A model generated the notes under the pieces. The model made no database searches and had not been told where the DNA came from. It saw only the letters and a program-made list of their open reading frames with translations. DNA of 64,000 nucleotides from Eledone cirrhosa. Taxonomy: Eukaryota. The translations under genes were made by a program, and so were the position numbers. Where the stretch lies: positions 42,346,001-42,410,000 of the forward strand of contig OZ024757.1 in assembly GCA_964016885.1 (NCBI GenBank), given 5' to 3'. Shown here piece after piece: positions 10,250 through 12,245 of the stretch; position 1 is the stretch's first letter; the number at the start of each line of letters is the position of its first letter.

Positions 10250-12245
10250 TATATATATATGCATATATATACTTATATATACACATATATATTTATATAT
10301 ATACATACCTATATATATATATATATACCTATATATATATATATATATATATATATATATATATATATATACATATATATATATATATATATATATATAT
10401 ATTTATATATATACATATATACATATATATATATACATATATATATATATATACATATATATTTATATATATACATATATATATATATACATATATATTT
10501 ATATATATATATACATATATATATATATATATATTTATATATATATATACATATATATATATATATATATACATATATATATATATATATATATATATAT
10601 ATATACATATATATTTATATATATATATATATATATATATATATATATACATATATATTTATATATATATATACATATATATATATACACACACACACAC
10701 ACATATATATATATATATATATATATATATATATATATATATATATATATATACATATATATTTATATATATATATATACATATATATTTATATATATAT
10801 ATATATATTTATATATATATATATATATATATATATATATATATATATATATATATATATATATACACACATATATATACACATATATATATATACACAC
10901 ACATATATATATATACACATATATATATATATACACTTAGATATATATACATTAAAAAACGGTACAACAATGAGGAACAATGATAAAAGTGTGAATAACA
11001 TGCAATGATGTCTTACCTGGCAGCATGTCGTCTGTGTTTGATGTCAGCAATAGCAAGGTTTTAAAAATAATAAGAATAAAGAAAAAAAACAGTGACAACG
11101 AATGCTTAACTTTAAAAAAAGTTATATATATATATATATATATATATATATATATATATATATATATATATATATATAAATATGTATATATATATATATA
11201 AATATGTATATATATATATATAAATATGTATATATATATATATATATATATAAATATGTATATATATATATATATATATAAATATGTATATATATATATA
11301 TATATATATAAATATGTATATATATATATAAATACGTATATATATATATATAAATATATATAAATATGTATATATATATATATATATATATATATATAAA
11401 TATATATATATATATATATATATATATATATAAATACGTATATATATATATATAAATATATATAAATATGTATATATATATATATATATATATATATATA
11501 AATATGTATATATATATATATATATATATATAAATATATATATATATATATATATATATATATATATATATATATATATATATATATATATAAATATGTA
11601 TATATATATATATAAATATGTATATATATAAATATGTATATATATATATTTATAAATATATATATATATATATAAATATGTATATATATATATATATATA
11701 TATATATATATATATATATATATATATATATATATATAAATAATGTATATATATATATATAAATATGTATATATATATATATATATAAATATGTATATAT
11801 ATATATAAATATGTATATATATATATATATATATAAATATATATAAATATGTATATATATAAATATGTATATATATATATATATAAATATATATATATAT
11901 ATATATATAAATATATATATATATATATATATAAATATATATATATATATATATATAAATATGTATATATATATATATATATATAAATATGTATATATAT
12001 ATAAATATGTATATATATATATATATATATGTATATATATATGTATATATATATATATATAAATATGTATATATATATATAAATATGTATATATATATAT
12101 AAATATGTATATATATATATATATATATATATATATATATATATATATATATATATATATATATATATATGTATATATATATATATATATATAAATATAT
12201 ATATATATATGTATATATATATATATATAAATATATATATATATA
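10250..12245. repeat. two large degenerate (TA)n arrays flanking a ~185-bp unique island
   Basis: (TA)n with ac/tt/aa/gt interruptions at 10250-10940 and 11125-12245. Confidence 0.95.
11017..11031 (-). CDS. SCAI: candidate 15-nt alternative microexon of SCAI (adds RHAAR)
   Basis: cacag|ACGACATGCTGCCAG|gtaaga; open in the phase-2 SCAI frame; upstream U-rich tract plus TGC motifs; TGCATG just downstream of the donor. Confidence 0.55.

What the first reader, a model, noticed from the sequence alone, without database searches (positions are those of the whole stretch)
10945..11125. Candidate 15-nt neural microexon in SCAI with eMIC- and Rbfox-type signals
Seen (minus strand): a long U-rich tract, then ...ccttgctattgctgacatcaaacacag|ACGACATGCTGCCAG|gtaagacatcatTGCATG. 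The exon is 15 nt and open in the phase-2 frame of the host intron, turning KEDRPDL into KEDR-RHAAR-PDL. It sits in a ~185-bp unique island between two large (TA)n arrays, inside a 32-kb intron. Established: neural microexons regulated by SRRM3/4 (eMIC domain) have a displaced polypyrimidine tract with UGC motifs near the 3' splice site, and downstream UGCAUG is the Rbfox inclusion enhancer. Inference: a neuron-specific SCAI isoform with a basic 5-aa insert; I know of no description of one.
Basis: partly seen in the sequence, partly recalled or inferred. Interest (0 to 1): 0.75.

Follow-up and report, generated by a model that had tools for sequence, protein, structure and literature searches.

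The report
Conserved cephalopod microexon in SCAI gene
A real, optional 15-letter exon, already present in public octopus gene models, adds the same five amino acids to the SCAI protein in octopuses and cuttlefish-type relatives, and its splicing signals suggest it is likely switched on mainly in nerve cells, which was not measured here.

Summary
The exon is real: 15 nt at 11031-11017 (minus strand), in frame between two SCAI exons. It is not new to databases. RefSeq octopus isoforms X1 and X2 contain RHAAR, X3 skips it, and five transcript-type proteins with cuttlefish-diagnostic residues carry it unchanged. The 15-nt exon has the vertebrate SRRM3/4-type layout: it is the only one of 16 SCAI acceptors with nearby UGC motifs and a displaced U-tract, with a strong donor and TGCATG at +13. 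The genome has eMIC-type and Rbfox-type coding matches. Neural specificity is inferred (about 65%), not measured, and 8 of 9 cephalopod records include the exon, which also fits broad inclusion. The insert falls in an indel-tolerant linker of a predicted TPR-like domain, where other animals have unrelated inserts. Side result: the predicted C-terminal half of SCAI matches Raptor's caspase-like N-terminus (Z 20.9). Verdict: new member of a known kind, modest interest.

The parts
11017..11031 (-). 15-nt alternative cassette microexon, phase 2-2; adds RHAAR
   Evidence: present in P0122, P0123, P0126 and 5 Logan proteins, absent from P0124
11063..11089 (-). U-rich tract displaced to about -58..-32 from the exon
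   Evidence: pyrimidine 78% at -60..-21 against 47% at -20..-4
11047..11055 (-). two UGC motifs at -24 and -18 (SRRM3/4-eMIC type)
   Evidence: the only one of 16 SCAI acceptors with a UGC in the last 40 nt
11011..11016 (-). 5' splice site GTAAGA (CAG|GTAAGA, 8 of 9 match to the U1 consensus)
10999..11004 (-). TGCATG (Rbfox-type element) at +13
   Evidence: 8 copies in 31,882 nt; about 0.006 chance of a start in a given 25 nt
10945..11125 (-). single-copy island between (TA)n arrays that holds the exon and its signals
24617..24652 (-). second alternative cassette exon, 36 nt, phase 2-2; adds IKWKENLCTQNR (CAQNR in database proteins); ordinary acceptor, no UGC, no TGCATG within 200 nt
   Evidence: present in P0123 and 4 Logan proteins
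34319..34417 (-). upstream SCAI coding exon (99 nt, ends KEDR)
2340..2436 (-). downstream SCAI coding exon (97 nt, starts PDLMVKK)
48476..48562 (-). further upstream SCAI coding exon (87 nt)
688..1961 (-). three further SCAI coding exons (1961-1863, 1255-1103, 810-688); the gene continues beyond both window ends

Best explanation
This is an alternatively spliced 15-nt exon of the octopus SCAI gene, shared with cuttlefish-type cephalopods, that is likely included mainly in neurons through the eMIC form of SRRM2/3/4 with help from Rbfox, and it adds a basic five-residue insert to a linker in SCAI's predicted TPR-like domain. Shown: the exon, its frame, included and skipped database isoforms, identical peptide across the two cephalopod types, the signal layout, and coding matches for both regulators in the genome. 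Inferred: the pyrimidine-poor acceptor makes skipping the default; eMIC acting at the UGCs and Rbfox at +13 promote inclusion; a second 36-nt exon is added on top in some transcripts. Predicted: the insert loops out between two helices without disturbing the fold. Speculative: it changes which partner binds the helical domain, or where the protein sits in the cell.
For: Isoforms: of 12 cluster members, 9 span the junction; 8 include RHAAR and 1 skips it. The five unnamed Logan proteins match Sepia pharaonis at 5 of 5 positions that separate it from Octopus and carry RHAAR unchanged. Signals: pyrimidine content at -20..-4 is 47% against 71-94% in the other 15 acceptors; 78% at -60..-21; AG-free zone 71 nt; UGC at -24 and -18 (0 of the other 15); TGCATG within 200 nt of the donor in 1 of 15 donors. 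This matches the published SRRM3/4 layout (bioRxiv 2024.09.17.613571 sections 3 and 10; PMC8797185 section 10) and the alternative rather than constitutive microexon class (PMC4317164 passages). Regulators: a PF15230 SRRM_C match over the cut-off ending HLDKRRIT, and a next exon starting ARKRPVPY 21 kb downstream on the same strand; one exact match to a recalled Rbfox RRM motif, control 0. In non-vertebrate bilaterians the eMIC form is restricted to neurons (PMC8797185 abstract). Structure: the junction R127|P128 lies between helices 122-125 and 128-147 at pLDDT about 93; with both exons the insert drops to 55-79 and the other helices stay.
Against: No tissue-resolved inclusion data were obtained. 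Inclusion dominates the records (8 of 9; all 5 cuttlefish-type proteins), which fits neural-heavy sampling but equally fits broad inclusion. Two features listed for eMIC targets are missing or unclear: no UCUC/CUCU in the 100 nt upstream and no clear CUAAY branch point. Unlike fly eMIC exons, the flanking introns are long and the donor is strong. UGC is neither required nor diagnostic. Rbfox-type exons can also be heart or muscle included. The linker tolerates indels: of 117 distant relatives 50 differ in length here, up to +34 aa, so the insert may have little effect. Conservation of the intronic motifs in other species was not tested.
Confidence: 0.6

Rival explanations
1. The exon is part of the usual cephalopod SCAI message in many tissues, or is included in nerve and muscle under Rbfox, and the skipped form is the minor one.
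For: 8 of 9 junction-spanning cephalopod records include it and no cuttlefish-type skipped form is among the 12 cluster members. The donor is strong. About 81% of human microexons are constitutive, and Rbfox exons include brain, heart and muscle cases (PMC4317164 passages).
Against: A skipped RefSeq isoform exists (P0124). The acceptor is the weakest of 16 near the AG, the flanking introns are long and TGCATG lies downstream, all marks of the alternative class in PMC4317164.
Confidence: 0.27
2. The exon is regulated but its peptide has little effect: it arose in a loop that tolerates almost any insert and persists because it is harmless.
For: 50 of 117 distant relatives differ in length at this linker; 16 distinct inserts map to this junction among 403 animal sequences. 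Cephalopod SCAI is about 98.6% identical between the two types anyway, so five identical residues are weak evidence of selection on the peptide itself.
Against: A 15-nt exon with working splice signals was kept in both cephalopod types inside a repeat-dominated intron, which neutral drift is unlikely to allow over the recalled 270-300 million years.
Confidence: 0.11
3. The site is a chance or cryptic pair of splice signals.
For: 27 look-alike candidates occur in the same interval.
Against: The exact peptide is in RefSeq models and in five unnamed Logan proteins of another lineage.
Confidence: 0.02

Closest known systems
SRRM3/4 (eMIC)-dependent neural microexons of vertebrates and Drosophila
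   Same: 3-27 nt, frame-preserving, U-tract set back from the AG, UGC near the acceptor, long AG-free zone, strong donor as in mammals.
   Different: No UCUC run and no clear CUAAY branch point; long flanking introns and a strong donor differ from fly eMIC exons; dependence and tissue pattern untested.
RBFOX-enhanced alternative microexons (PMC4317164)
   Same: TGCATG just downstream, low U close to the AG and high U further up, long flanking introns.
   Different: Described in mammals; binding in a cephalopod not shown.
RefSeq Octopus SCAI isoforms X1, X2, X3 (XP_014777914.1, XP_014777988.1, XP_014778064.1 and O. sinensis counterparts)
   Same: The same three splice forms: both exons, 15-nt only, neither.
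   Different: Automatic models without tissue or regulatory description; this genome has Thr where they have Ala in the 36-nt exon.
Recurrent neural microexon sites such as fly spg/DOCK3-4 and syd/JIP3-4 (bioRxiv 10.64898/2026.09.05.749416)
   Same: Unrelated short inserts at one conserved exon junction in separate lineages.
   Different: For SCAI only 2 of 16 non-cephalopod insert types of 2 aa or more must be cassette exons; the rest could be shifted splice sites, and none has tissue data.
Raptor N-terminal caspase-like region (e.g. 6bcu_W) and TPR/14-3-3 helical domains
   Same: Predicted SCAI 223-556 aligns to Raptor 49-392 at Z 20.9, rmsd 3.4, 263 residues; 12-195 aligns to TPR/14-3-3 proteins at Z 12-13.
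   Different: 16% identity; a shared fold shows no shared function; the helical match is in the range that common helical arrangements reach.

Membership tests
SCAI (PF12070) | Flanking exons match the family model in order | tested here: met
   positions 76-107 and 109-139; 11 matches over the cut-off on one strand of one contig
Alternative microexon | 3-27 nt, canonical AG/GT, frame-preserving | tested here: met
Alternative microexon | Both included and skipped forms on record | tested here: met
   P0122 and P0123 include, P0124 skips (database models, not reads)
eMIC/SRRM3/4-dependent neural microexon | Pyrimidine tract displaced from the AG, weak proximal acceptor, long AG-free zone | tested here: met
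   47% near, 78% far, 71 nt; two constitutive exons have longer AG-free zones (79, 81), so that feature alone does not discriminate
eMIC/SRRM3/4-dependent neural microexon | UGC between tract and AG | tested here: met
   -24 and -18; 0 of 15 other acceptors
eMIC/SRRM3/4-dependent neural microexon | UCUC-enriched tract (an enriched, not obligatory, feature) | tested here: not met
   the tract is U-rich with no TCTC or CTCT in the 100 nt upstream
eMIC/SRRM3/4-dependent neural microexon | Strong branch point | tested here: inconclusive
   read by eye: CTGAC at -16..-12 is close to the AG; no CTAAY upstream of the tract; no predictor run
eMIC/SRRM3/4-dependent neural microexon | Genome encodes an eMIC-bearing SRRM2/3/4 | tested here: met
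   the second exon was found with a recalled motif; expression not tested
eMIC/SRRM3/4-dependent neural microexon | Higher inclusion in neural than non-neural tissue | not tested
eMIC/SRRM3/4-dependent neural microexon | Inclusion depends on eMIC | not testable with these tools
   needs a minigene or knockdown
Rbfox-enhanced exon | UGCAUG in the proximal downstream intron | tested here: met
   +13; 1 of 15 donors in the gene
Rbfox-enhanced exon | Motif conserved across species and bound by Rbfox | not testable with these tools
   no other cephalopod genome is held; one Rbfox-type RRM motif match in this genome
Recurrent microexon hotspot | Independent cassette exons at the same junction in several lineages | tested here: inconclusive
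   cassette-only by codon logic in Patella and Tubulanus; others ambiguous; the genomes were not available

The most novel reading that the evidence does not exclude
One linker in SCAI's TPR-like domain is a site where animals have repeatedly invented small optional exons (cephalopods twice, limpets, a ribbon worm, possibly abalone, locusts and lizards). In cephalopod neurons a nested two-exon switch (none, +5, +17 residues) retunes a TPR plus Raptor-like scaffold away from its nuclear DNA-repair partners toward a neuron-specific partner or location.
Probability: 0.15. Interest if true: 0.65.

Novelty: new member of a known kind. Interest (0 to 1): 0.33.

Why it matters
Cephalopod neural microexon programmes are barely described (2 papers in the library hold both 'cephalopod' and 'microexon'), so a clean, conserved candidate with its likely regulators is a ready test of whether the eMIC and Rbfox code works in molluscs. 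SCAI has known nuclear roles with polymerase zeta (PMC8982572 passages) and an unexplained membrane and synaptic location in human neurons (bioRxiv 10.64898/2026.08.20.746004 passages). An isoform switch in its predicted peptide-binding domain would give a handle on that, though mammals show no insert at this site in the sequences examined. The predicted Raptor-like half of SCAI may be of more general use than the exon itself.

Tried and rejected
RNA evidence: no RNA holder listed for the exon-rich stretch. One contig of run X4 joins three downstream SCAI exons, so the gene is spliced in that sample, but the laid stretch did not show what precedes exon 2436; the junction stays unread. PDB sequence search: 0 matches. 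Fox-1_C family: no match in the genome, which does not show absence; an RRM motif did match. A motif search for the second eMIC exon in the 20 kb next to the first found nothing; it lies 21 kb away. Rejected: that the inserts of other animals are orthologous to RHAAR (different lengths and sequences). Tempered: the hotspot idea, since the scallop YG insert fits a shifted donor and several six-residue inserts ending in R fit shifted acceptors, and junction E8|E9 shows more length variation (54 distinct inserts, partly lineage-fixed). Vertebrates: 7 of 225 sequences with anchors have an insert, all lizards; 12 rows without the anchor were dropped (8 of them unrelated phosphatases) and the search favoured insert-free forms. 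Literature: 'SCAI'+'microexon' 7 papers, none on this by title, and the one opened meant the Sca1 antibody; four-term SCAI splicing search 57 papers, 20 listed, none on this by title; no CG13293 or SCAI in 1 supplement file of PMC8797185 (the fly gene name is recalled); no SCAI or microexon in the text or the searchable supplements of PMC9699675, whose annotation archive and PDF were not readable or not searched. The 2019 eMIC paper is not held, and the supplements of bioRxiv 10.64898/2026.09.05.749416, which covers O. bimaculoides tissue-specific exons, were not seen; either may already list this exon. SCAI-Raptor similarity: not found among 15 listed of 31 papers or in 1 paper; fold databases were not checked. 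Earlier scan notes: none near this place.

Full report
Observation. The sequence is as described. On the minus strand a U-rich tract (11089-11063) is followed by two UGC motifs, the acceptor AG (11033-11032), a 15-nt exon (11031-11017), the donor GTAAGA and TGCATG at +13. The flanking exons end at 34319 and start at 2436 and match Pfam SCAI at adjacent positions. A family search finds 11 matches over the cut-off on one strand of contig C18, and 15 segments of the octopus reference protein map in order across the window and its neighbours. The island has one match in the 3.0-Gb genome. In the 31,882-nt interval there are 27 look-alike candidates; only this one is stop-free and has both a nearby UGC and a downstream TGCATG.

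It is a real exon and already annotated. A homology search with a downstream exon led to a cluster of 12 cephalopod proteins. Nine span the junction; three were set aside as partial or mis-modelled (P0125, P0127, P0132). RefSeq Octopus isoform X3 (570 aa) reads KEDRPDL, X2 (575 aa) reads KEDRRHAARPDL and X1 (587 aa) has 12 further residues before RHAAR; each carries two RefSeq accessions, and an O. vulgaris model also has RHAAR, perhaps by transfer. Five unnamed Logan proteins carry RHAAR unchanged and agree with Sepia pharaonis at 5 of 5 positions that separate it from Octopus, so I infer the exon predates the split of octopods from squid and cuttlefish (about 270-300 million years, recalled). 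That background identity is 98.6% limits how much the identical peptide says about selection; the survival of the exon is the stronger point.

A second exon. The 12 extra residues map to a 36-nt cassette at 24652-24617, single-copy, with an ordinary acceptor and no UGC or nearby TGCATG. It occurs only together with the 15-nt exon (5 of 5 records that have it; 0 of 9 have it alone), which suggests nested inclusion, on few records.

Regulation. Among 16 SCAI acceptors the 15-nt exon has the lowest pyrimidine content next to the AG (47%, others 71-94%), the second highest further upstream (78%), and the only UGCs within 40 nt; its donor matches U1 at 8 of 9 and is the only one of 15 with TGCATG within 200 nt. 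Published SRRM3/4 targets have strong donors, tracts set back from the AG and a UGC between them (bioRxiv 10.1101/2024.09.17.613571, abstract and sections 3 and 10 read); fly eMIC targets share the acceptor layout but have short introns and weak donors (PMC8797185, section 10 and passages read). Alternative human microexons are set apart from constitutive ones by low U near the AG, high U further up and downstream TGCATG (PMC4317164, passages). The genome has an SRRM_C match with a following exon that starts ARKRPVPY and a match to a recalled Rbfox RRM motif. Against this: no UCUC run, no clear branch point, UGC is not diagnostic, and inclusion in 8 of 9 records also fits broad inclusion. No tissue data were obtained, so neural enrichment is an inference of about 65%.

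Protein. An AlphaFold2 model of the skipped isoform (93 sequences, pLDDT 91) has a helical N-terminal domain and an alpha/beta C-terminal part. The junction sits in an ordered linker between helices 122-125 and 128-147, flanked by nearly invariant residues (R116, Y118, R136, R140). The model with both exons keeps the fold and places the insert at low confidence. The insert raises the local net charge from +5 to +7, or +9 with both exons. Residues 12-195 resemble TPR and 14-3-3 domains at Z 12-13, a level common helical arrangements can reach; residues 223-556 match Raptor's N-terminal caspase-like region at Z 20.9 (rmsd 3.4, 263 aligned), well above true caspases at about 13. The strand ends where a caspase dyad would be expected read YISADG and [VI]DSD across the family with no conserved His or Cys (the assignment is my inference). 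So the insert most likely modulates a binding surface rather than a catalytic site. SCAI binds a REV3 peptide directly in vertebrates (PMC8982572, passages) and shows a non-nuclear location in human neurons (bioRxiv 10.64898/2026.08.20.746004, passages); which domain binds is not known to me.

Other animals. Among 411 sequences with anchors, 356 have no insert and 19 insert types occur. Two are cephalopod, two are single residues, and of the 15 others plus one more short type only Patella and Tubulanus must be cassette exons by codon logic; the test is conservative, since RHAAR itself would not pass it. None resembles RHAAR convincingly. Vertebrates show an insert in 7 of 225 sequences, all lizards. 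Distant eukaryotes vary in length here in 50 of 117 cases. The site is therefore permissive, and possibly a recurrent site of exon gain like those described for spg and syd (bioRxiv 10.64898/2026.09.05.749416, passages).

Novelty and verdict. The isoform is in RefSeq. I found no paper describing it, but two likely sources could not be seen: the 2019 eMIC paper and the supplements of the 2026 preprint that includes O. bimaculoides. It works like an eMIC/Rbfox neural microexon on sequence grounds; membership rests on inclusion data that were not obtained. New member of a known kind, interest 0.33.

Noticed in passing
SCAI model m36fb5be9ee40, residues 223-556: The predicted C-terminal half of SCAI matches Raptor's N-terminal caspase-like region (Z 20.9, rmsd 3.4, 263 aligned, 16% identity), well above caspases; not found in two paper searches, fold databases unchecked.
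   Followed up: partly
window 24652-24617 (-): Second alternative exon (36 nt). This genome has a Thr codon (ACA) where all five database proteins with the exon have Ala; an A-to-G edit would restore Ala, untested.
   Followed up: partly
G000:C22:28167743-28167880 and 28146461 (-) (L005, L008): Two exons 21 kb apart that together encode an eMIC-type SRRM2/3/4 C-terminus ending in a Ser/Arg-rich tail.
   Followed up: partly
SCAI junction E8|E9 (between window 688 and the next exon outside the window): A second variable site: optional inserts in scallop, chiton, oyster, abalone, Owenia, termite and carp isoform pairs, in a low-confidence loop of the model; none in the cephalopod records seen.
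   Followed up: partly
proteins P0462, P0463, P0533, P0585, P0589, P0632, P0634: Lizards share a 7-residue insert (SGHASVL) at the same junction as the cephalopod microexon; it could be a shifted donor or a cassette exon.
   Followed up: no
window 38103-38409 (+) and 62211-62518 (+): Open frames that look like retroelement fragments (a reverse-transcriptase-like stretch with YADD, and a zinc-knuckle-like stretch) inside SCAI introns on the opposite strand (labels recalled).
   Followed up: no
window 31691-33383, 17937-18690, 7998-8436, 26098-26481: Minisatellite arrays (72 nt x 24, 48 nt x 16, 48 nt x 9, 26 nt x 15) within the long intron.
   Followed up: no
window 979-1075 and 1299-1497: Very high-copy interspersed repeats inside the short SCAI introns, seen as extreme contig depth.
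   Followed up: no
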